Part shown: one piece after another, positions 49,369-59,331 of the stretch
Position numbering within the stretch: position 1 is the first letter of the stretch
Layout of the letters: each line of letters begins with the position of its first letter
Source: a virus
Length of the DNA stretch: 62,982 nt
IMG/VR virus record: IMGVR_UViG_3300017978_000296
Coordinates: 1-62,982 of that record
Reading direction: 5' to 3' (one strand)
The notes under the pieces: model-generated
The model's database searches: none
Told to the model about the DNA's origin: nothing
What the model saw: only the letters and a program-made list of their open reading frames with translations
Translations under genes and position numbers: made by a program

Positions 49369-50991
49369 TCAATACCCCCTTTGAGCGTTTCGCTGGTCAA
49401 GAATGCTGCGGTACAAGCCCAAGTCGCTTTCGAGCTGGCCGATGCGGTCCTCGAGGTTGCCTCGCTCACCAGCAGAACTGGTCAGAGGTAGCGAGCGGCG
49501 CAGCACTTCGAGCTGCTGCGTGATAGCTGGCACAGCCCTGGTGGCTTCGTCCGCGAGGGTGATGAACTGGTTGCGGTTGCCAGCGCTGTTGTCGGCACCG
49601 ATGGCGTTGCCCAGGCGCTGCTGCAAGCCCAGTGGTGCGGCAGGTGCGGCAGGTGCGGCAGCACCAGGCTTGGGGCCAGCCTTCTTGTCGTTGAGCGCCT
49701 TGAGTTGGTCCGCCACAGCGTTGGTAGGCGCGGTCAGCCCGTAGAGCTGGTCCGTCGCCATGCGGGCCTTGACTGGGTCGCCGTATACCTCGTTGAACTT
49801 GGCCATGGTCTCGGCGTATGCCTTGGGGTCAACATCGCGCTTGACGGAGCCCCGCTTCAGCGCCTCGATGGCGGTCGGCACATCCTTGAACGTGCCTGCC
49901 TTGACCAAGCGTTCTGCCTCTGCCGTGAGCGCCACGATGGGCGGCTGGTTGGCACGGTTGTATGAGCCGATCTGCGCATCTGCGACTCGGCCACGAATGC
50001 CGACTTCCTGACCCAGCAGGCGCAGTCGAGCAGCGTCATTGTCAATGCTGCCCTGTTTGGCCTTAGCGTCGTTGTTGACCCGGACAGTGTCGAGCGTCTG
50101 CTTGTTGTACTTGTCGACGATGGCGCTGATGTTGTCATCCACGCCGGTGAGGTACTTGAGCGCCTCAGCGCCCATGCCCTTGGCTGCCAGTTGTTGGCCG
50201 ACCACGAGCTTGCGCCCCACGGCCAGCGGCACAGAGAACGACTTACCGATCTCGCCTGTCTGGGGGTTGCGCTCAGCCATCAAGAACCCGCCCTTGGTGG
50301 AGCCGGTCACAAGCAGTGGCAGGTCAGACTGGTTGGTGTTCAGGTACGAAGTCAGTGCGCCTCGGACGTCGGCCTCAGGCATCTTCAGCGCGTCGTCCTC
50401 AAGGGCCTGGACATTGTCGGCACGTACGCCTTGGCGCTCACCGCGCTCACTCGCTGCGACCTGGAGTTCGGCTGCACGCTGCTTGAGCGGCTGCGCTTGC
50501 TTCTCCCAGTCGAAGCGGGTGTCGTCGCGCTCGCCAGCCTTGATGGACTGCATGAGGCCCAGGCCTCGGATCGGATCGGTCTTGGACACAGCGCCAGCCA
50601 TGGCGCGGGCACGCAGGCCCTCCATGCGCTCGGGGGTCAACTGATCGGCGTCGTAGCGCTGGCCCAGGAAGTTAGCCACTCGGCGCTGCTGGATGCCTAC
50701 GTCTGCGGGCGTGACCATCTGGCCATCTGCGCCCTGCACCTGGAAGTTGCTGCGGATACCGTACTGGCCGCCGGGCTGCGCCTCGAGCGTGTAGTAGGGA
50801 TTACCCTGAGCGTCCTTCGCGTTGGCGATGGCGGCGAGCTGCTCGCCATCTTGAGCCGTGTAGCCGGAGAACTCTTCGGGCTTGGCCTTCTGGATGTCCT
50901 CGAACTCTTTGTTCTGGCGAGCAGTGTTGTACGTGTCCATCGCCGTCTTGGCGATCTGCTGCCCGAGGGCGAAGTTGCGTGCGAAGCTCAT
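49369..50991 (-). CDS. Internal virion protein, 540 aa
   Basis: Track ORF with an ATGA-type overlap to the upstream gene. Located in the ejection-protein block. Confidence 0.8.
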   Translation of the reverse strand: MSFARNFALGQQIAKTAMDTYNTARQNKEFEDIQKAKPEEFSGYTAQDGEQLAAIANAKDAQGNPYYTLEAQPGGQYGIRSNFQVQGADGQMVTPADVGIQQRRVANFLGQRYDADQLTPERMEGLRARAMAGAVSKTDPIRGLGLMQSIKAGERDDTRFDWEKQAQPLKQRAAELQVAASERGERQGVRADNVQALEDDALKMPEADVRGALTSYLNTNQSDLPLLVTGSTKGGFLMAERNPQTGEIGKSFSVPLAVGRKLVVGQQLAAKGMGAEALKYLTGVDDNISAIVDKYNKQTLDTVRVNNDAKAKQGSIDNDAARLRLLGQEVGIRGRVADAQIGSYNRANQPPIVALTAEAERLVKAGTFKDVPTAIEALKRGSVKRDVDPKAYAETMAKFNEVYGDPVKARMATDQLYGLTAPTNAVADQLKALNDKKAGPKPGAAAPAAPAAPLGLQQRLGNAIGADNSAGNRNQFITLADEATRAVPAITQQLEVLRRSLPLTSSAGERGNLEDRIGQLESDLGLYRSILDQRNAQRGY

Positions 50992-52040
50992 GCGTACTCT
51001 CCTTCGACTGCGACCATCTCCAGGCCCAGCATCGTGTAGTTGACCGCCAGGTATCCACTGTCCATGGTGACGACAGCGGCGGGATACTTGGCCAAGACCT
51101 CATCGGCCATTACGCCGCGGAAGCGTTGGGTGCCGTCGGTGTACCGGAACTCGTACAGGCTCAGACCAGTGCGGGCGTCTTCGCCCACATGGACGATGTC
51201 TGCCTTCAAGCGGCGGTCGGACTTTCCAAGGTATGCAGCACCGATCTGAGCGCCAGCGCCCAGGATCGAGGCGAATGGATCGGCTTCGTTGTTGATCTGC
51301 GCGGCACGCTGGCCAAGCGACGTGTACGCGCCCATACCCTGGATGCCTGCCGACATACCCTGGTTGAACGAACCGGCAGCCGCGTTGTTCGCGTTGAGGA
51401 ACGAGCTGCCTGCGTTGGTCATGCCAGCACCAGACTGATTGCCCGTGCTCATGGAGTTCATGGCGAGCCCAGCGCTCGTGTTGCCCAGGCCTGCGAGGCC
51501 GCGCATGCCGCCGTACATCTGCATCTTGGAGGACAGGCCAACCTGATCGGCAGCCATCCGGGTCTTGTTGGCGGCGTTGGCCATGGCCTTGGCCTGCTCG
51601 AAGCCCATCGCGTTACCCATGGCCATCGACCTGCCGGAGTTAGGGTTAACCCCCATGCGGGCGAGACCGCGGCGCTGCTGCTCGGCGGCACCACTAAAAC
51701 CGCTCTGCACATCCGCCATGGCGGAGGCGACCTGCTGGTTCTTGTAGCCCGCACTGTCGAAGCGGTTGACGTCTTGCAGGAGCTGGTCCTCGAACGGGAT
51801 GCCGACGTTGCGGTACCGGTTGTCGTTGAACCGCATGCTCTCGAGCTGGTAGTCGCTCAAGGCCCCCGCTCGCTCGGCGTTGCGGCGCGAAATACCCATG
51901 GCCTCTTCAGCAATACCACGCATCCACGGGCGGTCGTTGGCCTGGTAGTCCTCGAAGATTCGCTCGTTCAGCTCGATCTGCCGATTGGCTGCCTCGCCCA
52001 TGCGTGGATCGGGGGCTGGTGCGCTAGATTTTCCACCCAT
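50988..52040 (-). CDS. Gly/Ala/Met/Asn-rich virion protein with a C-terminal S74-type chaperone domain, 350 aa
   Basis: Track ORF. The C terminus SDRRLKADIVHVG...GVMADEV...AVNYTMLG spans nt 50988-51221. Confidence 0.8.
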   Translation of the reverse strand: MGGKSSAPAPDPRMGEAANRQIELNERIFEDYQANDRPWMRGIAEEAMGISRRNAERAGALSDYQLESMRFNDNRYRNVGIPFEDQLLQDVNRFDSAGYKNQQVASAMADVQSGFSGAAEQQRRGLARMGVNPNSGRSMAMGNAMGFEQAKAMANAANKTRMAADQVGLSSKMQMYGGMRGLAGLGNTSAGLAMNSMSTGNQSGAGMTNAGSSFLNANNAAAGSFNQGMSAGIQGMGAYTSLGQRAAQINNEADPFASILGAGAQIGAAYLGKSDRRLKADIVHVGEDARTGLSLYEFRYTDGTQRFRGVMADEVLAKYPAAVVTMDSGYLAVNYTMLGLEMVAVEGEYA

Positions 52041-52041
52041 A

Positions 52042-52458
52042 TCAGTTCTCCAAGTACCGGCAGTCCTCGCGCCGCATTACGTACAAAATCACGTCGCCGC
52101 CATCCGAGGCGGCTTCTTGCAAGACGGCCTCCTGACGGAACCCGAGGTGCTCGTCGAATTTGCGGGCGTCGGCGTTGCTCGCCTCTACATAACCGCTAAC
52201 TCTTTTGCAGCCCAACTCCACGAACGGGTAGTGGAAGCAGTACCGCAGAAATTCTTTGTTGAGCCACTTTTTGCCAGGCTCGGCTGCAACGTGCATCCAG
52301 ATGTTGTGGTGGTTGAAGCCCTCATACAGGACCCCAGCCACCAACTCGCCGTCGCGCTCCAACCCCAGGCCCTTCATGCCTGCCACCAGGTTCACGGGCA
52401 TGCGCTCTTGGCAGAACGCAAACACCCGGGCGGGGTCGGAGACGACGCGAGTGGACAT
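52042..52458 (-). CDS. GNAT-family N-acetyltransferase-like protein, 138 aa
   Basis: Track ORF. VELGCKRVSGYVEASNADARKFDEHLGFR fits the GNAT motif A/B region. Confidence 0.65.
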   Translation of the reverse strand: MSTRVVSDPARVFAFCQERMPVNLVAGMKGLGLERDGELVAGVLYEGFNHHNIWMHVAAEPGKKWLNKEFLRYCFHYPFVELGCKRVSGYVEASNADARKFDEHLGFRQEAVLQEAASDGGDVILYVMRREDCRYLEN

Positions 52459-52691
52459 CAGACGTCGATGGTGATCTCGTCCGCCGCAGGGGCTGCGTCG
52501 GCAGCTTTCTTGCGGGTGGTCTTGGTGGTCTCGGTCTTGATGACCGCATCGTCGATCTCAGCCATGGCCAAGCCTTCGGCGGATGGGTAGAACTCGCCAT
52601 TGCGGAACTGACCCATGCTCTTGTGTTTCAGAACCAGATCACCGCCTACGGCTTGTGCGCCCATGGCGACCAGTTTGTCGAGTGTTGACAT
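52458..52691 (-). CDS. Hypothetical protein, 77 aa
   Basis: Track ORF with an AGGAG RBS. Its stop overlaps the next start. Confidence 0.65.
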   Translation of the reverse strand: MSTLDKLVAMGAQAVGGDLVLKHKSMGQFRNGEFYPSAEGLAMAEIDDAVIKTETTKTTRKKAADAAPAADEITIDV

Positions 52692-52735: not shown

Positions 52736-53128
52736 TTAGCTTGTGCTAGGGGGTACCGGCCAAACAATGTTTGTCGGGTCTGGCTGGGTCGTGACATCCC
52801 GCAGCGCCTGGCGGTACTCAGCCCATGCGGCCTTGGTGGTCAGAGGCACATCGGGCAGTTGGGTCCAGTCGGTCGGAGCAAGGAGTGCGTCGCGCCGGGC
52901 GCGGATAACCGGCCACACCACCCCATCAGGCAGGGGCTCGACCGTGAATGTCACGTCCATCACGTCGCTGGGCACCGGCAGCGAGGGCACCGCCCTGAAC
53001 AGACTGTCGTCGTGCGCTGGTGGGTTGTAGTTGACGATGCGCTCGCCCTCCCCCACGCGCATGAACGGGGTGGGTTTGGGCACCACCATCTTGATGGTGC
53101 CGTCAGGGTTCAGGAAGGCGTATGGCAT
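52736..53128 (-). CDS. Tail-fibre assembly (Tfa-like) chaperone, 130 aa
   Basis: Track ORF trimmed from a TTG start to ATG 53128. RRDALLAPTDWTQLPDVPL...AWAEYRQALRDVTTQPDP..IVWP is the classic Tfa C-terminal motif. Confidence 0.75.
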   Translation of the reverse strand: MPYAFLNPDGTIKMVVPKPTPFMRVGEGERIVNYNPPAHDDSLFRAVPSLPVPSDVMDVTFTVEPLPDGVVWPVIRARRDALLAPTDWTQLPDVPLTTKAAWAEYRQALRDVTTQPDPTNIVWPVPPSTS

Positions 53129-53141
53129 GTTATTTACACAC

Positions 53142-54494
53142 TCAGGCAATGGCCGGTTGAATTGGTATCACCTTGCGAGCTGCCGGGCGCACTGAATCCG
53201 GCCTGGAGCCGAAGATGTCCTTGCGGTCCTCCCGGAAGTCGCCCTCAATGTACAGAGGGATGCACCCAGTCAAGAACTCAATGCCAGCCGCGAAGACCGG
53301 CACGGCGTCGGAGTACGCGTTGTCACAAGACAGACCCCACAGCGGGCCTTCCAGAAACATGCACGAGCCCTGGCAGATTTGGAGCACTGGGCAGCTTGGA
53401 CAGTCCTTGCGATGACTCCAGTGGGTCGCCGTCTTGAGCTTGACGTTCTCGAAATCGGAGACGTGCCCGATCCGATGGGCTTCGCCATTGAACGCTGTGC
53501 TGGCAGCGCTGACGTTCTGGCAGGTCAAGACGTTGCCTCGCAGGTCAACAGCGATGTTGTCGTCCCTGTCCATGCCGCATTTCTGGCCCAGGCTCGACGC
53601 GGCTCGCCCGGTCTTGATTGAGTTCACGAACGACGCAACTTTGTTCTGTATAGCGCCTACGTTTGTCGCTTGCCCGGTGCGAATCTCGTGGAACGCCAAT
53701 CTGCGAAACGAGAGCATCTCCTCCGGATGCAACGACTGCGCAGCACCACCCTCGTCATACGCGTCAACAAAGCCGCCCTCGCCAATCGGCACATTGGGGT
53801 CTCCCGTCAACTCAACGAAGAACCGCTGGATCGCGGCACGCGAAACGTTGGAGCGGTTGACCATTGCGTTGAAGCTGATCCGCTTCTTTGGCGCGAGGCG
53901 CAGGTACAGGTCCATGATCGCAGCGCGTTTGTCTGGGTCTTGCAGTGGGTCCGGCCCGCGCACATGCTGACCAGGACCGTCGTGCGAAATCCCAACACTG
54001 AAACCCATCTCATCAAGCCACTGGTTGATTTCCGGGCTGAGCAGCGATCCATTTGTAATGACTTGCAGCTCTACCCCTGGGTACTTAGCCTTCACCGCAT
54101 CCGCCAGCGGGCGCAAAGTCTTGATGTACACGAACGGCTCACCGCCCCAAAACTCTACTCTCTCCGGTGGAGTGGTCACCCAGGAGTCAAGCCCGCGGAT
54201 AAAGTCGGACACATCGCCAGGATTGGTCTCATCCGCCCGAGGAACAAAACGCTGCGAGCAGTACTCGCACTCGTAGTTGCACGACAACCCAAGACTGATC
54301 TTCAAGACGCGTGGGCTGGACTTTCCTAGCGGTGTCTCGAGAGACACCGCCGGGGCGGCGGAAGTCTCCGCAGCGCTTACCCGTGGCCCGATTGGCCTGC
54401 CCTCAGAGTCTGATAGCTGGCTTGTTTGGTTGTCGTAGCGCATCTGAACGTTCGAGCCGTCCGGTGCGCGAGCGTAGATCGTAAACGTCGCCAT
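53142..54494 (-). CDS. Radical SAM enzyme with a C-terminal SPASM domain, 450 aa
   Basis: Track ORF. CNYECEYC (CX3CX2C) lies at nt 54258-54281, with a GGEP motif. The SPASM signature is C-x13-G-x4-C ... CPSCPVLQICQGSC ... C (nt ~53325-53579). A ~60-aa N-terminal extension is present. Confidence 0.9.
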   Translation of the reverse strand: MATFTIYARAPDGSNVQMRYDNQTSQLSDSEGRPIGPRVSAAETSAAPAVSLETPLGKSSPRVLKISLGLSCNYECEYCSQRFVPRADETNPGDVSDFIRGLDSWVTTPPERVEFWGGEPFVYIKTLRPLADAVKAKYPGVELQVITNGSLLSPEINQWLDEMGFSVGISHDGPGQHVRGPDPLQDPDKRAAIMDLYLRLAPKKRISFNAMVNRSNVSRAAIQRFFVELTGDPNVPIGEGGFVDAYDEGGAAQSLHPEEMLSFRRLAFHEIRTGQATNVGAIQNKVASFVNSIKTGRAASSLGQKCGMDRDDNIAVDLRGNVLTCQNVSAASTAFNGEAHRIGHVSDFENVKLKTATHWSHRKDCPSCPVLQICQGSCMFLEGPLWGLSCDNAYSDAVPVFAAGIEFLTGCIPLYIEGDFREDRKDIFGSRPDSVRPAARKVIPIQPAIA

Positions 54495-55180
54495 CAGGCG
54501 CTCCCGCTGCGCTTGGCGAAGTAGGCCAACTGTCGGTCGCGCAACGCTTTCTTGAAGTCACCAATGCTGTCTACAACGTCGTCAGCGGAGCGGCCCTCGT
54601 TAGCGCCGCACTCGGCCAGGAGTTGTTGCAGCTTCCCCGCCAGCGGAATGGACTGCCCGGCGGGCACAAGTGCGGTCAGTTGCAGCACCATGTCAGTCAG
54701 GAGGTCGACTTGCTTCTCCAACGAAGACAGGCTGTCTAGCGGATTAACATCGCGCACCAGGTCCATCTTGGCCGCGTTTCTCCTGCGGACAGCGCTCGCG
54801 GACGGGTACACTTCCGCGGCCATCTCTCCTGGGGTCGCAAGCGTCACCTCGACGAAGTCTTCAATATCGGTGGCGCAGGGGACTTGCACAACCAACACGG
54901 CTTCATCGGGCGTCGCCCCGAAGTAGACGCTCGCCACTTGCTTTTCGAGTTCCATCTGCCGCATGACGGCTTGCCAATCACGCGCATCGACGTAGGCGGC
55001 CTGGCTTACAAGCACCAGTTCGCCCCGCTTGACATACACGTACTGCATCTCGCTGGCGCGAAAAAGCGTGCCGTCCACGACAAGCGAAGACTCGCCGAGC
55101 TTTAACAGGTATCCATCACCAGTGCGCTCAACAGAGCAGACCGGCGCATCGTTTGAATGAGAAACAAGTGCGATTTTCAT
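54494..55180 (-). CDS. Hypothetical protein, 228 aa, partner of the radical SAM enzyme
   Basis: Track ORF with ATGA overlap upstream and TGATG overlap downstream. No recognisable motif. Confidence 0.75.
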   Translation of the reverse strand: MKIALVSHSNDAPVCSVERTGDGYLLKLGESSLVVDGTLFRASEMQYVYVKRGELVLVSQAAYVDARDWQAVMRQMELEKQVASVYFGATPDEAVLVVQVPCATDIEDFVEVTLATPGEMAAEVYPSASAVRRRNAAKMDLVRDVNPLDSLSSLEKQVDLLTDMVLQLTALVPAGQSIPLAGKLQQLLAECGANEGRSADDVVDSIGDFKKALRDRQLAYFAKRSGSA

Positions 55181-55752
55181 TGTGACTCCACCATCATTGT
55201 GAAATGAATTTCAACCCCCGGCCTTTCGCCTTTATAGGGGAAAACGTAATGCGGGATGTACGACGGGTGCACGACCAGTGAACCCGGGAAGGGCTCATAC
55301 ATCTTGCTGCGCGACGGCTCCCACGGCAGCTTCTTGAAGCCAAACACGCCGGATGGATTCTGCAAACAGAAGATTCCGGAGTAGTCGGCTTGGTCTGGGT
55401 CAGCAATGCACGACCAGTCCAACCAAAGGAGCGCTGACAAGTCAGACGCACCCTCAACGTGGGTCGGCAAGTGTTGGCCGTTCAGAAAGATCGACTCCCG
55501 ACCAATCAGCTCAGTGATCTTGACTTTGTATGCCTCCTCAGTCAGCAGGCGCACGCGCTCAAAGATCGGTCCGTAGATTTCAGGGTAAAGCACGTCCAGG
55601 CTGGTCTTGACCGGCCTCGAGTACGGCACCCGAAACGGGTTGAGCTGTAGGTCTGCTTCAATCGCAGCAGCACTGGCCGCTGCAATCTCTGCATCGGAAA
55701 GCAGACCGTCAAACCTGGCTACGGTCACCGGAAAAATCTGTTCGACCAACAT
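55177..55752 (-). CDS. Cupin/2OG-Fe(II)-oxygenase-like protein, 191 aa
   Basis: Track ORF. The layout IFLNGQHLPTHVEG ... PFPGSLVVHPSYIPHYV ... ERPGVEIHF resembles phage 2OG-Fe(II) oxygenase-superfamily proteins. This is a motif-level resemblance only. Confidence 0.6.
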   Translation of the reverse strand: MLVEQIFPVTVARFDGLLSDAEIAAASAAAIEADLQLNPFRVPYSRPVKTSLDVLYPEIYGPIFERVRLLTEEAYKVKITELIGRESIFLNGQHLPTHVEGASDLSALLWLDWSCIADPDQADYSGIFCLQNPSGVFGFKKLPWEPSRSKMYEPFPGSLVVHPSYIPHYVFPYKGERPGVEIHFTMMVESQ

Positions 55753-55759
55753 GCGCCCC

Positions 55760-56080
55760 TTAGCACTCGCAAGCGCATGCGCAGTTCGTGAACGTGTACA
55801 CCATACGGACAGTGTTCCCGTTCGGCTTGTCGATGTAATCGTTGTTTGGGGTGCGCACGTTTCCGCAGTTACCGTTGACGTTGGTTGCAGCAGTTATCTC
55901 ATTGCTTTTAGCGCCGAAGCGGTCGTGCAGCCAGCCGTAGTTGGGGGTCCACACTTGTCCGTTGTTGTTGACGTACATGTCCCAACCGCCTCCGGTGTTC
56001 AGGAATCCGAGGTTGGTGCCGTCGCCATGCACCCAGCGGTTGTTCACTAAGACGCGGTCGCCTTCAAGTCTGGTTGGCAT
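55760..56080 (-). CDS. G/N/W-rich 106-aa protein ending in CACACEC (candidate modified fibre-tip protein or precursor)
   Basis: Track ORF. Its ATG lies 1 nt after the fibre-2 stop. The C terminus ...MVYTFTNCACACEC was verified on the DNA. An AAGGGG RBS for the next gene follows 7 nt later. Confidence 0.75.
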   Translation of the reverse strand: MPTRLEGDRVLVNNRWVHGDGTNLGFLNTGGGWDMYVNNNGQVWTPNYGWLHDRFGAKSNEITAATNVNGNCGNVRTPNNDYIDKPNGNTVRMVYTFTNCACACEC

Positions 56081-56081
56081 A

Positions 56082-57242
56082 TCAAGCCCCTTTCAGTTCG
56101 TTTAGTTCGCGGCGCAGCGAAACCACTTCGCTCGCCAATTTGATCGCCGCCACAAGCGCAGCGTTTCCGTAGGCCACCGAGAGCATCCCGTCCGTACCTT
56201 CGCGGACCACGGGTGAGAGCAGTGCCCTCATCGCTTGGGCGCTCACACCGGCTTGCGTCTCACCCGTGTCCTTGCGGTCATAGATGCCCATCTTCACCTC
56301 AGCCAAACGCTCGAGGAAGTCGAGTGGCAGATCGCGCCAGTTCTGTTTAAGCCGCTCGTCCGAGTTGGCGGTCACGTTGCCTGTTGCAGTAAAGTCGCCA
56401 ACGGTATTCAGGTTTCCTGCGGTGGTTGTGTTCCCACCCGTGTCCACGGAGAGTAGTGTCTTGAACCAGTCACCCGCTCCATTTGTCTGCGCCAGTGCGA
56501 TTCGGTTGTCGGCCTGTATCACCAAGCCATAGCCAACCACGCCGGGCTTCACGACCTCATACATCGCGTCGTTACTCGACGATGTGATCCGCATGCCGAC
56601 GCGAGCCGTGGACAGGATGGTGTTCGATGTGCTGACCGCGGCTGCGGTCGTAGCCGTCGCCGCGTTGCCAGAGATGCTGATGCCCCAGGTGCCAGTGGCC
56701 CCGGTGCCGTTCAACGGTGCCGCGCCGATGGTGTTGTGCGATACCGTGATAGCCGAGCCGCCGTTGAACACGACGCCACTGGCGGCACCAGAGCCCGCGT
56801 TGTTGAACGTGACGTTGTTGTTCAGGTTGACCGAGATGTTGGCCGAGCCGTTGAAGCTCACGCCGTTGATGTTGCGGGCCGTGGCCAGCACTGTGGCCGA
56901 GCCTGCGTTGCCCGCGATGTTGCCGCTGATCTTGGCACCAGCAAGCGTTGTGATCCACGCAGGGTCGGAGTACGCACCTGTCGTGACCACGCCGTTGGTC
57001 ACGGTGCCTGCGTTGCCGGTGATGCTGATCGCGTAAGTCGCAGCCAGATCGACCCACGAGGAGCCATTCCATCTCTGCCACTTGGTCGCCGCGCCGGAGT
57101 ACCGGATCGTGTTGGTCGGGACGTTGGTCGCGGTAGTAAACGCGGGGTCCAGGCCTACCGCCAGGTCGTCGAAACGCGCATCCAGCTCCGAGACGAAGTT
57201 GGCGTACGTGCTGGTTGTTAGCGGTCTACTGTGGTCAGCCAT
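56082..57242 (-). CDS. Tail fibre 2 (386 aa) with a C-terminal S74-type intramolecular chaperone
   Basis: Track ORF. SDERLKQNW...AYGNAALVAAIKLASEV spans nt 56082-56363. The junction GDFTATGNVTANSDERLK is nearly identical to that of fibre 1. Confidence 0.9.
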   Translation of the reverse strand: MADHSRPLTTSTYANFVSELDARFDDLAVGLDPAFTTATNVPTNTIRYSGAATKWQRWNGSSWVDLAATYAISITGNAGTVTNGVVTTGAYSDPAWITTLAGAKISGNIAGNAGSATVLATARNINGVSFNGSANISVNLNNNVTFNNAGSGAASGVVFNGGSAITVSHNTIGAAPLNGTGATGTWGISISGNAATATTAAAVSTSNTILSTARVGMRITSSSNDAMYEVVKPGVVGYGLVIQADNRIALAQTNGAGDWFKTLLSVDTGGNTTTAGNLNTVGDFTATGNVTANSDERLKQNWRDLPLDFLERLAEVKMGIYDRKDTGETQAGVSAQAMRALLSPVVREGTDGMLSVAYGNAALVAAIKLASEVVSLRRELNELKGA

Positions 57243-57243
57243 G

Positions 57244-59331
57244 TCAATACCCTCGGACTGAGTAACTCACAGTACCGGACACCCGAGTACCAGAACTGTT
57301 GAACAACAGGACCCGGAAACTCAAAGGATCGAATGAGTCTGTGAAGTCGTAAATGGCGTACAAAGGCGTTGTGCCCTGTGCTGCCACCGTGATGGATTCT
57401 ACGTCAATAAACGTTTTTGGCCCAGTGCTTGTGCGGTCCTCTGTTAGGAACACAGTGGTCCCTCCAGAGTCGGAGGCACTCGCAAACACAGCGCCTGCCT
57501 GGTTCTTGAGCTTAGTGTCCAGCTTGATCGCCAAGTTAGACAGTTGTGCCACACCTTGGTCGTTCGTCGCGGTCACGTTAACTCGCACCTTAACGTAGCG
57601 GAAGTTGATGCCGTAGCCCTGATCGCCGGTAAACACCTGCACATTCGATGTGAACGCAGCGTCCAAGGCGACCGTGACTGTGACGGAAGACGAGACCGAC
57701 CCGGCTACCGGGGTAAGCAGGTACGCCACCGTGACTTTCATCGCCGCGAGCGTCGCGCCGTAGTCGAAGACTTCCTCGTAGAACCCGTTCGTCGCACCTG
57801 GCTGGATGAAGACCGGATACCCGGCGCTCACCTGTGCCGAGGGGCTCGCCCACCCGCGAGTCGAGAAGTGCGCATCCCAGGTCTCGGTCGTGTTGACCGG
57901 TATCACCAAAACTCCATCGTCGATCACGGCGTTGGACTTCGTGCCCGAGAACGTCGAGCTGAAGTTCGTCGCCAGGACGTAGTCTGGCGGCTGGTTGACG
58001 GTCGCGCTTGTGCTGACCGGGGTGCCGTAGTTGCCCGCCGTGTCGATGGCGGCCAGCCAGTAGGTGAACACCGACTGGGTCGGAGGGGCCTCGAACACGG
58101 TGGTAAACCCACCGTCCTTGCGTCCGATGTCCTCCGCCGTCGCCCACACGGGCCCACGTCGCAGGTCGTACGTCGCAATGGGCAGCGAGCCCGGCGTATT
58201 GCCCCATCGGAACAGGACGTTGTTGTCGATCACCTCGGTTGTGAGGCCTACCACGGAACCCGTGGCGATCTGGATAGGCACAGAACGAACTGCACCGGCG
58301 TTGCCCGCGGAGTCGATGGCCCGCACCAGGAGTGTCTTGTTCAGCCAGGTGACCTTGGTGCGAAACACTGTGGCGTACAGCGTGGCCAGCAGCGTGCCAG
58401 CGGAGACTGTCGTGTCGTAGACCTCGTAGCGATCCACGGGCAGCGACCCGGCGGGCGGCGTCCATGTGAGCACCACCTGTTCGCCGTTGAAGGACACCTG
58501 AGCTTGCGGAGCCGAGGCGTTGGCTACCGTGACCGTGATGTTGGTGTTCGGCCCGCGATTGCCGTTGATGTCGATGGCCGCCAGGCGGAACTGTCGCGCA
58601 CCAGTCCATGTAGCCTTGAACCGATAGGAGTTGCCCGACACCAAGTCGAACGGCACCCACGCGCCATCGAGGTACTCGACCGCGTACAAAGACACCGCCA
58701 GGTTGCTGTTGGGGGTGGGCCAGAACAGCTCGACGTCAGGGCCGACAAAGATCGAGCTCACCGCCATCGAGCCTGGGCCGAGGTTCGTGCTTGCGCCGTT
58801 GACGTCGTTGAATGGTCCAGCCAGGAAGTTGTACGCGACGTCCCTGATCCAGTAGTAGTACGCGACGCCAGGGTCTGGCAGCCCGTCGGTGAACGAGTTG
58901 CCGGATGTCGAACCGATCTTCTCGGCGCGGCTCAAGTTGTTCTCGGTGGCCCGCCAGATTTCAGTCTCGGCGTACTGATCGAACGTGCTGGTGTCCCAGC
59001 CCAGGATCGTGTTGGTCTTGTCAGTCGTCACCACCAGGTTCGTCGGTGGGGGTGGCGCGGTGTCCGAGGTAATCCAGTCCGGCATCGTGAACTGAACCAG
59101 CCCCAGGAGCTGCTCGGCGGTGTACTGCTTGCCGCCGATGGTCGTGACACCCTCTTTGATCTTGAGGAGCCCAGTGTCGATCAGGTCGCGGAACGTGGGC
59201 GCTGCGTCCAAGGCACTGCCTCGCTGGCGCAGGCGGACTTCCAGGTTCTCCTTGATGGAGGACAGGAACTGTCGGAGTTGCGGGTCGACGTTGACCGGCA
59301 GCGATGGGATGGAGCTGGGTGCGGAACTCAT
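57244..59331 (-). CDS. Tail structural protein with repeated Ig/FN3-like beta domains, 695 aa
   Basis: Track ORF, coupled to its neighbours. The repeated pattern is V.W.PP.....V..Y. Confidence 0.8.
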   Translation of the reverse strand: MSSAPSSIPSLPVNVDPQLRQFLSSIKENLEVRLRQRGSALDAAPTFRDLIDTGLLKIKEGVTTIGGKQYTAEQLLGLVQFTMPDWITSDTAPPPPTNLVVTTDKTNTILGWDTSTFDQYAETEIWRATENNLSRAEKIGSTSGNSFTDGLPDPGVAYYYWIRDVAYNFLAGPFNDVNGASTNLGPGSMAVSSIFVGPDVELFWPTPNSNLAVSLYAVEYLDGAWVPFDLVSGNSYRFKATWTGARQFRLAAIDINGNRGPNTNITVTVANASAPQAQVSFNGEQVVLTWTPPAGSLPVDRYEVYDTTVSAGTLLATLYATVFRTKVTWLNKTLLVRAIDSAGNAGAVRSVPIQIATGSVVGLTTEVIDNNVLFRWGNTPGSLPIATYDLRRGPVWATAEDIGRKDGGFTTVFEAPPTQSVFTYWLAAIDTAGNYGTPVSTSATVNQPPDYVLATNFSSTFSGTKSNAVIDDGVLVIPVNTTETWDAHFSTRGWASPSAQVSAGYPVFIQPGATNGFYEEVFDYGATLAAMKVTVAYLLTPVAGSVSSSVTVTVALDAAFTSNVQVFTGDQGYGINFRYVKVRVNVTATNDQGVAQLSNLAIKLDTKLKNQAGAVFASASDSGGTTVFLTEDRTSTGPKTFIDVESITVAAQGTTPLYAIYDFTDSFDPLSFRVLLFNSSGTRVSGTVSYSVRGY

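What the first reader, a model, noticed from the sequence alone, without database searches (positions are those of the whole stretch)
52736..57242. Radical SAM/SPASM enzyme, oxygenase-like protein and a Cys-tailed small protein embedded in a tail-fibre module: candidate virion-protein maturation (RiPP-like) cassette
Six minus-strand genes are chained with 1-8 nt overlaps or gaps of 13 nt or less:
- fibre 2 (57242->56082);
- a 106-aa protein ending FTNCACACEC (56080->55760, ATG 1 nt after the fibre stop);
- a 191-aa cupin/2OG-Fe(II)-oxygenase-like protein (55752->55177);
- a 228-aa protein with no recognisable motif (55180->54494);
- a 450-aa radical SAM enzyme (54494->53142);
- a Tfa-like fibre-assembly chaperone (53128->52736).

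The radical SAM enzyme has CNYECEYC, GGEP and a complete SPASM signature (C-x13-G-x4-C ... C-x2-C-x5-C-x3-C ... C).

SPASM radical SAM enzymes are established peptide/protein maturases. Examples are sactipeptide and ranthipeptide/SCIFF synthases, PqqE and anSME. QhpD installs Cys-to-Asp/Glu thioethers in a ~100-aa protein subunit.

Here the enzyme sits in a phage receptor-binding module, with no transporter, protease or immunity gene nearby. That argues for cross-linking or oxidation of a virion (fibre-tip/adhesin) protein rather than a secreted RiPP.

Normally a Tfa gene directly follows its fibre gene. Here four genes are inserted between them, and fibre 2 already carries its own S74 chaperone.

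I recall no described phage tail module of this kind. That novelty statement comes from memory, not from a search.
Basis: partly seen in the sequence, partly recalled or inferred. Interest (0 to 1): 0.85.

Follow-up and report, generated by a model that had tools for sequence, protein, structure and literature searches.

The report
Phage fibre-tip Cys tail with radical-SAM maturase
A phage tail-fibre module encodes a small fibre-tip protein ending in an alternating Asn/Ala/Asp-Cys tail next to a radical SAM enzyme, a pairing conserved in well over a hundred sampled phage and prophage loci and apparently undescribed, which suggests phages chemically cross-link the part of the virion that recognises the host.

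Summary
Six tightly packed minus-strand genes are present: an S74 fibre, a 106-aa protein ending NCACACEC ("TIP"), a 2OG-oxygenase-like protein, a 228-aa protein, a radical SAM/SPASM enzyme, and a Tfa-like chaperone.

Relatives of the enzyme occur on 361 viral contig stretches, on 94 bacterial genome stretches and in cultured phages RSP15, JWF and 2-1. An N-C-(N/A/D)-C… tract (3–11 Cys) ends an upstream same-strand tail-fibre ORF in 63 of 70 viral loci and 53 of 60 genome loci, down to about 35% enzyme identity, or 28% in jumbo phage RP12.

The tract lies within 7 residues of the C-terminus (77 of 90 contexts) or is followed by a Hint self-cleaving domain (12 of 90). Fibres that have the same N-domain but no enzyme lack the tail.

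Asn, Ala or Asp fill 93% of the non-Cys positions. This is the acceptor set of NxxcB, the enzyme that makes Cys–Asn β-thioethers. The most likely mechanism is iterative thioether stapling of the receptor-binding fibre tip, with optional oxygenase tailoring. The chemistry is inferred, not shown.

Ten full-text searches found no description. I rate it a new variant of a known kind, of high interest.

The parts
57244..59331 (-). Fibre 1: tail fibre / host-specificity protein (695 aa), immediately upstream of the cassette
   Evidence: ORF. phrog_1727 'tail protein and host specificity' at 2.4e-24 and phrog_19394 tail fibre at 1.7e-18.
56082..57242 (-). Fibre 2 (386 aa) with a C-terminal Peptidase_S74 self-cleaving intramolecular chaperone. 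It contains no cysteine.
   Evidence: Pfam PF13884 at 3.7e-8, residues 294-346. phrog_25788 tail fibre at 5e-20. Against close relative L166 the body is 14-32% identical while the S74 part is 88-100% identical.
55760..56080 (-). TIP: free-standing 106-aa fibre-tip protein. It has a conserved N-domain (residues 1-55), a variable middle and a C-terminal Cys tail. It is the predicted substrate.
   Evidence: Homologous to the distal part of JWF gp028, 2-1 gp27 and RSP15 gp048. A TIP-like domain lies upstream of the enzyme in 46 of 83 loci. Eight free-standing homologues all end in an NCxC tail. AlphaFold2 pLDDT is 82-89 for residues 1-50 and below 50 for the tail. dN/dS is 0.26 against L166.
55763..55786 (-). 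The alternating tract N99-C-A-C-A-C-E-C106, directly followed by the stop codon. It is the predicted modification site.
   Evidence: Sequence. Tract grammar over 90 distinct contexts: always starts N-C; 3-11 Cys; X = N 57%, A 19%, D 17%; 77 of 90 lie within 7 aa of the stop.
55177..55752 (-). OXY: 191-aa 2OG-Fe(II)-oxygenase-like protein, a frequent but optional tailoring enzyme
   Evidence: PF13759 at 0.0014, below the cutoff. phrog_81 at 3.8e-6. hhalign to cluster c8 (itself PF13759 at 3.6e-5) gives 98.3% probability. H98 and H168 are conserved. Present in 93 of 122 cassettes. 100% aa identity to L166 with 13 synonymous changes.
54494..55180 (-). P228: 228-aa partner protein of unknown fold, with start and stop overlapping OXY and the enzyme. 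It is mutually exclusive with the C2 family.
   Evidence: No family hit. Homologous to JWF gp029 (5e-8). Present in 23 of 122 cassettes and never together with C2 (89 of 122). AlphaFold2: a β-rich domain at 1-140 with pLDDT about 90, then helices. No PDB fold match; only uncharacterised phage proteins in BFVD, including one from RP12.
53142..54494 (-). Radical SAM/SPASM enzyme (450 aa), the predicted maturase
   Evidence: Ten invariant Cys in 76 homologues. 283 cluster representatives at E<=1e-30 among 1.84 billion proteins. Nearest solved structures are the TigE entry 8VPO, CteB 5WGG and anSME 4K37.
54258..54281 (-). CX3CX2C radical SAM cluster motif (C72, C76, C79: CNYECEYC)
   Evidence: 100% conserved.
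53325..53579 (-). SPASM domain with seven invariant Cys (C306, C325, C365, C368, C374, C378, C390) and no conserved eighth Cys
   Evidence: TIGR04085 at 34.3 bits, cutoff 27. Conservation.
52736..53128 (-). Tfa-like tail-fibre assembly chaperone. It belongs to this phage's fibre module but is not a conserved member of the cassette.
   Evidence: PF16778 at 1.4e-17. A homologue follows the enzyme only in L041 (72% identity) among 83 loci.

Best explanation
The region is one operon in the tail-fibre module of a podovirus-like phage contig. Its conserved core is a two-part maturation module.

(1) A fibre-tip domain (TIP) exposes at its C-terminus an alternating tract N-C-(N/A/D)-C-…. In the window TIP is a free-standing 106-aa protein encoded right after a self-cleaving S74 fibre.

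(2) A radical SAM/SPASM enzyme.

Proposed mechanism:
- The enzyme binds the flexible C-terminal tail of TIP.
- A Cys thiolate ligates the fourth, cysteine-free iron site of auxiliary cluster I.
- The 5'-deoxyadenosyl radical abstracts a β-hydrogen from an Asn/Ala/Asp(Glu) residue. The tract reads as overlapping N-x-x-C units.
- A Cys-to-Cβ thioether forms, and the reaction repeats along the tract. In the window up to three rings are possible: N99-C102, A101-C104 and A103-C106.

The resulting ladder of cross-links would rigidify and protect the receptor-binding end of the virion fibre, possibly stapling the three chains together. The 2OG-oxygenase-like protein would add an optional oxidative step, most plausibly hydroxylation of tract or neighbouring residues. 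P228, or its mutually exclusive analogue C2, would act as a substrate-presenting or assembly partner.

Shown: the genes; the motifs; the tight co-occurrence and co-variation of tail and enzyme; the requirement for a C-terminal position or a Hint domain; the fibre context; and TIP's host-range-like variability.

Inferred from strong comparative evidence: TIP's tail is the enzyme's substrate (about 0.8).

Inferred by analogy only: thioether chemistry (about 0.45-0.5), and the roles of OXY and P228.
For: Co-occurrence:
- A tract ends an upstream same-strand ORF in 63 of 70 viral loci and 53 of 60 genome loci. The strict pattern finds 122 loci in all.
- It holds in cultured myo-, sipho- and jumbo phages and at 35-44% enzyme identity in Alphaproteobacteria.
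- Tracts with 4 or more Cys number 63 on the enzyme's strand against 6 on the other strand.

Specificity control: fibres of Itty13, Dolphis and Alfirin share TIP's N-domain motifs, but these phages are absent from the enzyme hits. Their fibres lack the tail, with 0-2 isolated Cys.

Position: 77 of 90 tracts lie within 7 aa of the stop. Twelve of 90 are followed by a domain starting CFP(A/L)(G/D)T…, with Hint-family hits from its first residue.

Fibre context: TIP is fused to collagen-repeat or PHROG tail-fibre proteins.

Enzyme class:
- CX3CX2C plus seven SPASM Cys are invariant, with no eighth conserved Cys.
- The nearest characterised relatives all modify peptides or proteins: the TigE entry 8VPO, CteB, anSME, YydG; PapB, QhpD and DynA at the HMM level.
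- In SPASM enzymes Aux I is typically held by three Cys with a variable fourth ligand (PMC10878394).

Chemistry precedent:
- NxxcB forms a Cys-Asn β-thioether in an NxxC motif, tolerates Ala, Gln and Asp as acceptor, and chelates the Cys thiol on an auxiliary cluster (PMC9389541).
- QhpD and freyrasin make Cys-Asp/Glu thioethers (PMC7327761).
- The phage tract's X positions are N 57%, A 19% and D 17%, against 7%, 10% and 6% background.

TIP is the only Cys-rich protein in the window's module; fibre 2 has no Cys at all.

Evolution: against L166, TIP is 80% identical (dS 0.51, dN/dS 0.26), while OXY is 100%, P228 98.7% and the enzyme 93.4% identical (dN/dS 0-0.11).
Against: - No biochemical or proteomic datum exists for any member.
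- All equivalog HMMs for known maturases score far below their cutoffs: PapB 52 against 340, QhpD 43 against 453, anSME 38 against 349. Sequence therefore does not fix the chemistry.
- No RiPP recognition element was detected. The conserved N-terminal segment of about 55 aa is shorter than an RRE, and the PDB alignments start after the RREs of TigE and CteB.
- Rings in a strictly alternating tract would have to overlap, which is unusual.
- An alternating pattern is also what a β-strand with one Cys face, or an alternating epimerase, would give.
- The permissive scan includes a few spurious Arg-rich frames.
- The X-position statistics come from a pattern that excludes bulky or basic residues, although the unrestricted listing shows the same residues.
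- The monomer AlphaFold model of the tail is uninformative.
Confidence: 0.6

Rival explanations
1. Same substrate, different radical chemistry. The enzyme acts on the TIP tail but does something other than thioether formation. Options include epimerising alternate residues to give a D/L-alternating segment (as the proteusin and YydG epimerases do), oxidising Cys to formylglycine (anSME-like), or forming C-C or C-O cross-links.
For: - anSME is the only solved structure that aligns over the whole radical SAM + SPASM region (residues 71-379, 4e-10), and YydG also matches.
- JWF gp030 was originally annotated as an anaerobic sulfatase-maturating enzyme.
- A strict every-other-residue pattern is the signature of alternating epimerisation (my own knowledge of polytheonamide and PoyD; not tested).
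- Sequence scores do not discriminate among maturase classes.
Against: - The anSME recognition motif C/S-x-P/A-x-R is absent from every tail.
- anSME has an eighth Cys that completes Aux I ligation (my own knowledge). This family has only seven invariant SPASM Cys.
- The invariant element of the tract is Cys, and the partners are restricted to N/A/D. That fits Cys-to-Cβ linkage with the NxxcB acceptor set better than epimerisation, which has no need for Cys.
Confidence: 0.2
2. The Cys tract is a structural ladder, and the enzyme's substrate is something else. In a trimeric fibre the alternating Cys would face the axis and bind metal ions or form disulfides, analogous to the His-x-His iron sites of the T4 gp37 needle. 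The radical SAM enzyme would then modify another component (P228/C2, another fibre residue, a cofactor) or help build a metal or Fe-S centre on the tail.
For: - The alternating periodicity fits a β-strand with one Cys face.
- TIP carriers include trimeric collagen-repeat fibres.
- The RP12 tail peptide and its neighbour gp074 carry H-T-H motifs next to the NCNC tract.
- Co-occurrence alone cannot prove an enzyme-substrate pair.
Against: - The tail is found only where the enzyme is. It is missing from homologous fibres in phages lacking the enzyme, which argues that the tail cannot function without it.
- The restriction of X to N/A/D matches a known thioether acceptor set.
- P228 and C2 are unrelated, mutually exclusive, and neither was detected in 10 of 122 loci, so neither is a universal substrate.
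- A requirement for a free, flexible C-terminus is typical of an enzyme substrate.
Confidence: 0.12
3. A secreted or intracellular RiPP-like product (bacteriocin, lysis or superinfection factor) or an antiviral or anti-defence radical SAM enzyme (viperin-like) that merely sits in the fibre module as a moron.
For: - pVip and viperin models hit residues 71-218 (NCBIfam 5e-14, PADLOC 7e-15).
- In RP12 the tail-bearing ORF is only 65 aa, the size of a RiPP precursor, and is followed by several radical SAM genes.
Against: - The viperin hits cover only the generic radical SAM core and are far below the cutoff (52 against 180 bits). Viperins lack the SPASM domain present here (my own knowledge of viperins).
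- In most loci the tail is the C-terminus of a 300-700-aa tail fibre.
- No peptidase, transporter or immunity gene appears in the window or among the recurrent cassette genes.
- TIP varies like a receptor-binding module.
Confidence: 0.04

Closest known systems
NxxcB/NxxcA (streptococcal RaS-RiPP 'NxxC' subfamily; ranthipeptide-type β-thioether)
   Same: Both use a radical SAM enzyme with auxiliary Fe-S cluster(s) acting on Cys within an N-x-x-C motif. The NxxcB acceptor is Asn, with Ala, Gln and Asp tolerated (PMC9389541). The phage tract is built of overlapping (N/A/D)-C-x-C units, with N, A or D at 93% of X positions.
   Different: The substrate here is the C-terminus of a folded virion fibre-tip protein (100-700 aa), not a short leader-core peptide. 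The motif is iterated 3-11 times with period 2. There is no quorum-sensing regulator, peptidase or exporter.
QhpD/QhpC (quinohemoprotein amine dehydrogenase maturation)
   Same: An RS-SPASM enzyme installs several Cys-to-Asp/Glu thioethers in a roughly 100-aa protein that then functions as a subunit of a larger assembly (PMC7327761). This is the best precedent for cross-linking a protein subunit as opposed to a RiPP.
   Different: TIGR03906 scores 43 bits against a cutoff of 453. QhpC is a periplasmic enzyme subunit with spaced Cys…Asp/Glu pairs, not an alternating C-terminal tract. There is no phage context.
PapB/freyrasin and CteB/SCIFF (ranthipeptide synthases)
   Same: RS-SPASM architecture. 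PapB aligns over residues 68-379, and CteB 5WGG scores 2e-10 at profile level. They iterate Cys-Asp β-thioethers in repeated motifs, six in freyrasin.
   Different: Scores are far below equivalog cutoffs (52 against 340). No RRE domain was detected. Motif spacing is CX3D there and alternating here. Those products are free peptides.
Self-cleaving C-terminal modules of phage fibres (Peptidase_S74 intramolecular chaperone) and tip adhesins/chaperones (T2-type gp38, Tfa)
   Same: Fibre 2 carries S74, and TIP follows it as a separate small distal protein. This resembles a tip adhesin that docks after C-terminal processing. A Tfa-like gene closes the module. Where the tract is internal, a Hint domain takes the place of a removable C-terminal module.
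   Different: To my knowledge none of these systems involves enzymatic covalent modification of the fibre. A Hint domain used as the removable module directly after a Cys tract did not surface in the single literature search on it.
His-x-His iron-binding needle of T4 gp37 (my own knowledge; not tested here)
   Same: A short alternating motif at the distal tip of a trimeric fibre, where every second residue could face the trimer axis.
   Different: The residues there are His, not Cys. No modifying enzyme is associated with it. Here the motif occurs only together with a radical SAM enzyme.

Membership tests
Radical SAM superfamily, SPASM subfamily (RS-SPASM) | CX3CX2C motif binding the SAM-cleaving [4Fe-4S] cluster | tested here: met
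   C72-x3-C76-x2-C79. Invariant in 76 homologues. Pfam Radical_SAM 32.8 bits, cutoff 29.5.
Radical SAM superfamily, SPASM subfamily (RS-SPASM) | Seven-Cys SPASM motif C-x9-15-G-x4-C … C-x2-C-x5-C-x3-C … C for two auxiliary clusters | tested here: met
   C306-x13-G-x4-C325 … C365-x2-C368-x5-C374-x3-C378 … C390, all invariant. TIGR04085 34.3 bits, cutoff 27.
Radical SAM superfamily, SPASM subfamily (RS-SPASM) | Reductive SAM cleavage and modification of a peptide or protein substrate | not testable with these tools
   Needs anaerobic enzymology or co-expression with mass spectrometry.
RiPP pathway (sacti-/ranthipeptide type) | Short precursor with leader and core, encoded next to the maturase | tested here: not met
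   The tract-bearing product is a 106-aa folded protein in the window and usually a 300-700-aa tail fibre. Only RP12 has a 65-aa ORF.
RiPP pathway (sacti-/ranthipeptide type) | Leader peptidase and/or exporter or immunity genes in the cluster | tested here: not met
   None in the window and none among the recurrent cassette genes.
RiPP pathway (sacti-/ranthipeptide type) | RiPP recognition element (PqqD-like wHTH) in the maturase or a partner | tested here: inconclusive
   No Pfam or NCBIfam RRE hit. PDB profile alignments begin at residue ~52-55, after the RREs of TigE and CteB. The P228 model has no PDB fold match. A divergent RRE cannot be excluded.
PapB / QhpD / anSME / DynA equivalogs | Score above the curated NCBIfam equivalog cutoff | tested here: not met
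   PapB 51.8 against 340; QhpD 43.3 against 453; anSME 37.8 against 349; DynA 39.1 against 450.
anSME (anaerobic sulfatase-maturating enzyme) | Substrate motif C/S-x-P/A-x-R in a sulfatase | tested here: not met
   No such motif in TIP or in any of 56 unique tails. No sulfatase is nearby.
Viperin / pVip | Full-length match above the cutoff, with a nucleotide-binding C-terminal extension in place of SPASM | tested here: not met
   Only core residues 71-218 match: 52 bits against a cutoff of 180, PADLOC pVip 7e-15. A SPASM domain is present.
2OG-Fe(II) oxygenase (the 191-aa protein) | Pfam family membership and the H-x-D/E…H iron triad | tested here: inconclusive
   PF13759 19.4 bits, below the cutoff of 27. 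phrog_81 3.8e-6. Homologous to c8 at 98.3% hhalign probability. H98 (84%) and H168 (100%) are conserved and H98-V-E100 is present. Activity is untested.
Phage tail fibre distal/tip protein (TIP) | Homology to the C-terminal part of tail fibre proteins, and location in a tail module | tested here: met
   blastp to JWF gp028 and 2-1 gp27 at 8e-8. Fused to collagen-repeat or PHROG tail-fibre proteins elsewhere. The window module is flanked by fibre 1, fibre 2 and a Tfa-like gene.
Phage tail fibre distal/tip protein (TIP) | Presence in the virion | not testable with these tools
   Needs virion proteomics, which is feasible for the cultured phages JWF, 2-1 and RSP15.
Hint/intein-type autoprocessing domain (related loci only) | N-terminal Cys followed by block A (C-F-x-x-G/D-T…D/N-G), and a Pfam Hint-family match | tested here: met
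   JWF gp028: Hom_end_hint 47.5 bits, cutoff 32.1, from residue 308. Twelve distinct extensions all start CFP(A/L)(G/D)T. Other subtypes hit Hint families at 6e-7 to 3e-3, below the cutoffs. Cleavage itself was not tested.

The most novel reading that the evidence does not exclude
Phage virions carry a new kind of enzymatically built structure at their receptor-binding tip. A radical SAM enzyme converts an alternating Asn/Ala/Asp-Cys C-terminal tail into a ladder of overlapping thioether rings. These may link the three chains of the fibre covalently, or the product may be an alternating-stereochemistry or metal-binding needle. Up to three oxygenases would then decorate it. In some lineages a Hint domain would expose the tail by self-cleavage, or activate it as a C-terminal thioester. 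This would be the first RiPP-type post-translational chemistry shown on a virion structural protein, and a previously unseen layer of host-range and stability engineering.
Probability: 0.25. Interest if true: 0.95.

Novelty: new variant of a known kind. Interest (0 to 1): 0.86.

Why it matters
Receptor-binding fibre tips determine phage host range and are the main target of phage engineering. As far as I know and could find, no enzyme-installed covalent modification of a fibre tip by a phage-encoded radical SAM enzyme has been described.

If confirmed, this module would have four consequences:
1. It would extend RiPP-type radical chemistry from secreted peptides to virion structural proteins.
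2. It would explain a recurrent radical SAM gene of unknown role (PHROG 1802) in phage genomes.
3. It would give a compact, portable tag-plus-enzyme pair: a tail of about 8-20 residues, one enzyme, and an optional Hint release module. Such a pair could be used to staple or harden engineered proteins.
4. Heterologous expression of such fibres without their maturase would be expected to fail, which matters for phage therapy and for tailocin design.

The system can be tested directly because three cultured phages (JWF, 2-1, RSP15) carry it.

Tried and rejected
- **Family scans.** Pfam, PHROGs, NCBIfam and PADLOC found nothing for TIP or P228.
- **Structure.** AlphaFold2 of TIP (8-sequence alignment) was confident only for residues 1-55. 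The tail scored below 50 pLDDT, so it gives no structural inference. Foldseek against the PDB gave no match for TIP or P228; the best E-values were 2.0 and 0.38. BFVD returned only uncharacterised phage proteins for P228.
- **P228 and C2.** They are not remote homologues (0.6% hhalign probability). c27, c41 and c47 could not be tied to the oxygenase families.
- **Nucleotide search.** blastn of the 4.6-kb region against GenBank phages found only short fragments. tblastn of the 106-aa TIP against phages found nothing at E<=1e-3, so the longer L007 TIP fibre was used as the query.
- **Viperin/pVip.** Rejected: only the core matches, below the cutoff, and a SPASM domain is present.
- **anSME.** Rejected as a membership: no substrate motif and a score far below the cutoff.
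- **Tfa as a cassette member.** Rejected: it follows the enzyme in 2 of 83 loci.
- **Chance.** Considered, because alternating-Cys strings occur in out-of-frame Arg-rich translations of GC-rich DNA. Rejected for the N/A/D-Cys tract because of its fixed position in homologous ORFs and the strand asymmetry of 63 against 6.
- **Literature.** Ten full-text searches found no description. Terms included radical SAM with tail fiber, SPASM, thioether, receptor-binding protein, Hint domain, phage-encoded RiPP, and the string NCNCNC. Subscription-only papers are not covered.
- **Not done.** One call failed on frame errors and was redone with explicit sequences. Another failed the same way and was dropped. 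A direct comparison with the NxxcB sequence could not be made.

Full report
**1.

| Gene | Coordinates | Size |
|---|---|---|
| Fibre 2 | 56082-57242 | 386 aa |
| TIP (my name for the 106-aa protein) | 55760-56080 | 106 aa |
| Oxygenase-like protein (OXY) | 55177-55752 | 191 aa |
| P228 | 54494-55180 | 228 aa |
| Radical SAM enzyme | 53142-54494 | 450 aa |
| Tfa-like protein | 52736-53128 | 130 aa |

- Each of the four middle genes has a purine-rich Shine-Dalgarno-like run 5-10 nt before its ATG.
- Promoter- and terminator-like sites inside the block do not exceed shuffled expectation. This fits one operon.
- Fibre 2 has a Peptidase_S74 intramolecular chaperone, and the last gene is a Phage_tail_APC chaperone.
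- The enzyme passes the Pfam Radical_SAM cutoff and the NCBIfam SPASM-domain cutoff (TIGR04085), and matches phrog_1802 at 1.4e-61.
- The 191-aa protein is a weak 2OG-FeII_Oxy_5 / phrog_81 match.
- TIP and P228 match nothing in four HMM libraries.
- Surrounding genes are structural or lytic: fibre 1, a phrog_511 virion protein, a second S74-containing protein and a GH19 endolysin.
- The window equals a whole 62,982-bp metagenomic contig. Its structural genes are distantly related to those of Achromobacter phage CF418P1, Vibrio phage douglas 12A4 and Stx-converting phages.

**2. The key finding: the Cys tail and the enzyme travel together**

Cultured phages:
- tblastn of the enzyme found full-length homologues at about 50% identity in Ralstonia phage RSP15 (taxonomy line Ackermannviridae, 168 kb) and in Achromobacter phages JWF and 2-1 (a lambda-like tail gene order with a central fibre J).
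- In each, the gene upstream is a tail fibre whose distal part is homologous to TIP and carries the same kind of tract:

| Protein | Sequence at the tract |
|---|---|
| RSP15 gp048 | …SNTNCQCGN* |
| JWF gp028 | …RQNCNCDCNCNCSC, then FPAGTMVLMADG… |
| 2-1 gp27 | …RANCNCDCNCSC, then FPAGTMV… |

Viral contigs:
- A scan of IMG/VR found 361 stretches encoding relatives, and 80 loci were fetched.
- Of the 70 loci with at least 1.5 kb upstream, 63 have an alternating-Cys tract in a same-strand open frame within 4.5 kb. A few of these are spurious Arg-rich frames. The true tracts read like …YNFNCNCNCNCDCYC*.

Bacterial genomes:
- A scan of 185,579 bacterial genomes found 94 relatives. They lie mostly in freshwater Burkholderiales (Limnohabitans, Polaromonas, Rhodoferax) and in Alphaproteobacteria (Ferrovibrio, Rhodospirillales).
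- With a strict pattern, 53 of 60 loci with enough upstream sequence have the tract. This includes enzymes only 35-44% identical to the window's.
- The distant loci are still tail modules, with PHROG tail fibre, tail protein and terminase genes.

Other points:
- Tracts with four or more Cys are found 63 times on the enzyme's strand and 6 times on the other strand.
- The association reaches jumbo phage RP12, whose enzyme is 28% identical. An unannotated 65-aa ORF there ends …NCNCNCACTRGSL*, and its stop overlaps the start of a protein with a weak fold resemblance to the P228 model (BFVD rank 3, E 0.034). Several radical SAM genes follow.
- An exhaustive HMMER scan of 1.84 billion representatives gives 283 clusters at E<=1e-30, nearly all 420-480 aa.

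**3. Grammar of the tract**

Over 90 distinct contexts and 56 unique tract strings:
- The tract always opens with Asn-Cys.
- It holds 3-11 Cys, with a median of 5.
- The 383 intervening positions are Asn 57%, Ala 19% and Asp 17%. The same residues make up 7%, 10% and 6% of the rest of the same proteins.
- 77 tracts end within 7 residues of the stop codon.
- 12 tracts are followed by a 160-215-aa extension that always starts Cys-Phe-Pro-(Ala/Leu)-(Gly/Asp)-Thr…(Asp/Asn)-Gly. This is the N-terminal block of Hint/intein domains. The Pfam Hom_end_hint match is above the cutoff in JWF gp028, starting at the Cys that closes the tract, and sub-threshold Hint hits occur in the other subtypes.

Hint domains cleave the bond before their first Cys (established knowledge of Hint/intein chemistry). 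These fibres would therefore also end up with the tract at a new C-terminus. Two independent solutions place the tract at a free C-terminus, which is what an enzyme acting on a flexible tail would need.

**4. Specificity control**

The conserved N-domain motifs of TIP (GFL-T-GGGW…, YGW(L/M)HDRF) also occur in fibres of Pseudomonas phages Itty13 and Dolphis and of Agrobacterium phage Alfirin. None of these phages appears among the enzyme hits. Their fibres either run straight into an S74 chaperone or end …VRVTHLDAP*, with 0-2 isolated Cys and no tract. The tail therefore tracks the enzyme, and the fibre domain does not.

**5. Cassette composition**

Clustering of 915 ORFs from 84 sources (83 loci and the window region) gives a recurring order: central fibre, c4, c5, TIP with the tail, one to four accessory genes, then the enzyme.

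Across 122 loci with both the tract and the enzyme:

| Accessory family | Loci |
|---|---|
| C2 family (unknown N-domain plus a weak Ig-like C-terminus) | 89 |
| P228 | 23 |
| Both C2 and P228 | 0 |
| Neither | 10 |
| Oxygenase family (OXY/c8) | 93 |
| Second oxygenase type (2OG-FeII_Oxy_3) | 26 |

- c2 and c40 are homologous, as are OXY and c8. P228 is unrelated to C2.
- The window's set (TIP, OXY, P228, enzyme) is the second most common architecture.
- The split layout, an S74 fibre followed by a small free TIP, recurs in L024 and in the close relatives L165-L167.
- The Tfa-like gene follows the enzyme only in the window and in L041. It belongs to this phage's fibre module, not to the conserved cassette.
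- JWF and 2-1 have only the TIP-Hint fibre, P228 and the enzyme, so the oxygenase is dispensable.

**6. The enzyme**

- Exactly ten cysteines are invariant in 76 distinct homologues: three in CX3CX2C and seven in SPASM. There is no eighth conserved Cys.
- In SPASM enzymes, three Cys of CX2CX5CX3C plus the final Cys hold Aux II. Aux I is typically held by three Cys with a variable fourth ligand (PMC10878394).
- In thioether-forming enzymes the substrate Cys is proposed to occupy that fourth site (PMC9389541; PMC7327761).
- At profile level the nearest solved structures are 8VPO (the entry cited in the TigE cyclopropyl-synthase paper, 2e-16), CteB (2e-10), anSME (4e-10, the only one aligned over the full length) and YydG. 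The best NCBIfam alignments are to PapB, QhpD, DynA and anSME. All are 5-10-fold below their equivalog cutoffs.
- The family is therefore a distinct RS-SPASM clade whose relatives all modify peptides or proteins. Sequence alone does not fix its reaction.
- No RRE was detected. The conserved N-terminal segment of about 55 residues is shorter than an RRE and lies outside all the alignments.

**7. Most likely mechanism**

- N-C-N-C reads as overlapping N-x-x-C units. NxxcB, a streptococcal radical SAM enzyme, links Cys to the β-carbon of Asn in exactly such a motif. It accepts Ala, Gln and Asp in place of Asn but needs Cys as the donor, and it chelates the thiol on an auxiliary cluster (PMC9389541).
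- QhpD and PapB make Cys-Asp/Glu thioethers. QhpD does so in a roughly 100-aa protein subunit (PMC7327761).
- The phage tract's near-exclusive use of Asn, Ala and Asp next to invariant Cys fits this chemistry better than any alternative I could think of.
- I therefore propose iterative Cys-to-Cβ thioether formation along the tail. In the window the candidate rings are N99-C102, A101-C104 and A103-C106. The result would be a compact cross-linked cap on the fibre tip.
- The oxygenases would add optional hydroxylations. P228 or C2 would present or assemble the substrate. P228's start and stop overlap its neighbours, which suggests translational coupling.
- These last roles are inference only.

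**8. TIP behaves like a receptor-binding module**

Comparison with a close relative from another sample, L166:

| Gene | aa identity to L166 | dS | dN/dS |
|---|---|---|---|
| OXY | 100% | 0.10 | 0 |
| P228 | 98.7% | 0.12 | 0.07 |
| Enzyme | 93.4% | 0.18 | 0.11 |
| TIP | 80% | 0.51 | 0.26 |
| Fibre 2 body | 14-32% | not calculated | not calculated |
| Fibre 2 S74 part | 88-100% | 0.31 | about 0.07 |

- The fibre body and TIP have therefore been exchanged by recombination while the enzymes stayed. This is as expected if TIP is a host-range determinant served by conserved maturation machinery.
- TIP is still under purifying selection, which confirms it is a real gene.
- The tail differs by one residue (A101V).

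**9. Rivals**

- (a) Same substrate, other chemistry: alternating epimerisation, formylglycine formation or C-C links. Sequence cannot exclude these. The anSME motif is absent, and Cys invariance with N/A/D partners favours thioethers.
- (b) The tract is a metal- or disulfide-binding ladder in the trimer (compare the His-x-His sites of T4 gp37, from my own knowledge), and the enzyme does something else. This is hard to reconcile with the tail's strict dependence on the enzyme (section 4) and with the need for a free C-terminus.
- (c) A secreted RiPP or a viperin-like function. This is contradicted by the fusion of the tail to large fibres, the absence of export or peptidase genes, and the presence of the SPASM domain.

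**10. Novelty and limits**

- Ten full-text searches found no paper connecting a radical SAM enzyme with a phage tail fibre or describing the tract.
- Published genomes annotate the genes as 'radical SAM domain-containing protein', 'anaerobic sulfatase-maturating enzyme' or 'hypothetical'. PHROGs files the family under 'other'.
- The library lacks most subscription-journal papers, so prior description cannot be excluded.
- The enzyme class and the proposed chemistry are known. What is new is the substrate (a virion receptor-binding protein), the iterated period-2 motif, the Hint-domain alternative and the oxygenase-rich cassette. I therefore rate it a new variant of a known kind.
- No structure or biochemistry supports the chemistry. 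The monomer model of the tail is uninformative, and both TIP and P228 lack fold matches in the PDB.

Noticed in passing
L164 (Ralstonia phage RP12, NC_041911) 1948-2145, + strand; record coordinates about 82888-83085: An unannotated 65-aa ORF ends …SHTHVFYDNYGSNCNCNCACTRGSL*, and its stop overlaps the ATG of gp075. It is followed by three annotated radical SAM genes (gp076, gp077, gp079), by gp078 with a CQAGCKIC motif, and by a DUF3050 protein. It is preceded by virion structural proteins with fibre-like repeats. It looks like a RiPP-precursor-sized version of the same system, with several maturases.
   Followed up: partly
L002 (Achromobacter phage JWF gp028) residues 308-483; also L003, L040, L099, L137 and L157-L163: Tail fibres carry a C-terminal Hint/intein-type domain directly after the Cys tract, in three sequence subtypes. 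This is an alternative to the S74 chaperone as a removable C-terminal module. It could also generate a C-terminal thioester on the tract.
   Followed up: partly
window 56082-57242 compared with L166 857-1828: There is a sharp mosaic boundary inside fibre 2. The first roughly 290 residues are 14-32% identical between two otherwise near-identical phages, while the S74 chaperone part is 88-100% identical. This marks a recombination junction at the start of the chaperone domain.
   Followed up: partly
window 50988-52040 (-): A 350-aa protein downstream of the cassette also has a Peptidase_S74 chaperone domain (residues 274-323, 24.1 bits, cutoff 22). The phage therefore has at least two self-cleaving S74 proteins.
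   Followed up: partly
window 52042-52458 (-) and 52458-52691 (-): A GNAT-type acyl-CoA N-acyltransferase (phrog_4470, 1e-44) and a 77-aa ORF follow the Tfa-like gene. The same three genes (Tfa-like, 77-aa ORF, GNAT) follow the enzyme in L041. Whether the acetyltransferase acts on a virion protein is unknown.
   Followed up: no
L024 2551-6969; L051 and L054 (equivalent positions): An expanded cassette variant has five or six extra genes between TIP/C2 and the enzyme. They include a membrane protein with the His boxes of fatty-acid desaturases or hydroxylases (c46: HRYFSH…HSAHH…HDEHH) and several unassigned proteins (c27, c41, c47). c27 is the family of RSP15 gp046.
   Followed up: no
L002 (JWF gp028) residues 178-251: A Pfam Shufflon_N match (PilV constant region, 29.9 bits, cutoff 27.5) overlaps the start of the TIP-like region of the fibre. 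This may hint at a shared adhesin module between phage fibres and type IV pilus tip proteins.
   Followed up: no
L004 3863-5530, L047 3187-5247, L127 4165-6012: Some TIP carriers are collagen-triple-helix-repeat fibres with a weak CBM_5_12 match. Prolyl-hydroxylase-type oxygenases (2OG-FeII_Oxy_3) occur in some cassettes, so some of the oxygenases might target fibre collagen repeats and not the Cys tail.
   Followed up: no
L096 and L111 (MAG labelled Akkermansia muciniphila), L153 (MAG labelled Klebsiella pneumoniae), L108 (Bacteroidetes MAG): A few genome hits sit in bins whose taxonomic labels do not fit the otherwise freshwater beta- and alphaproteobacterial distribution. These are probably mis-binned phage contigs and not real host range.
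   Followed up: no
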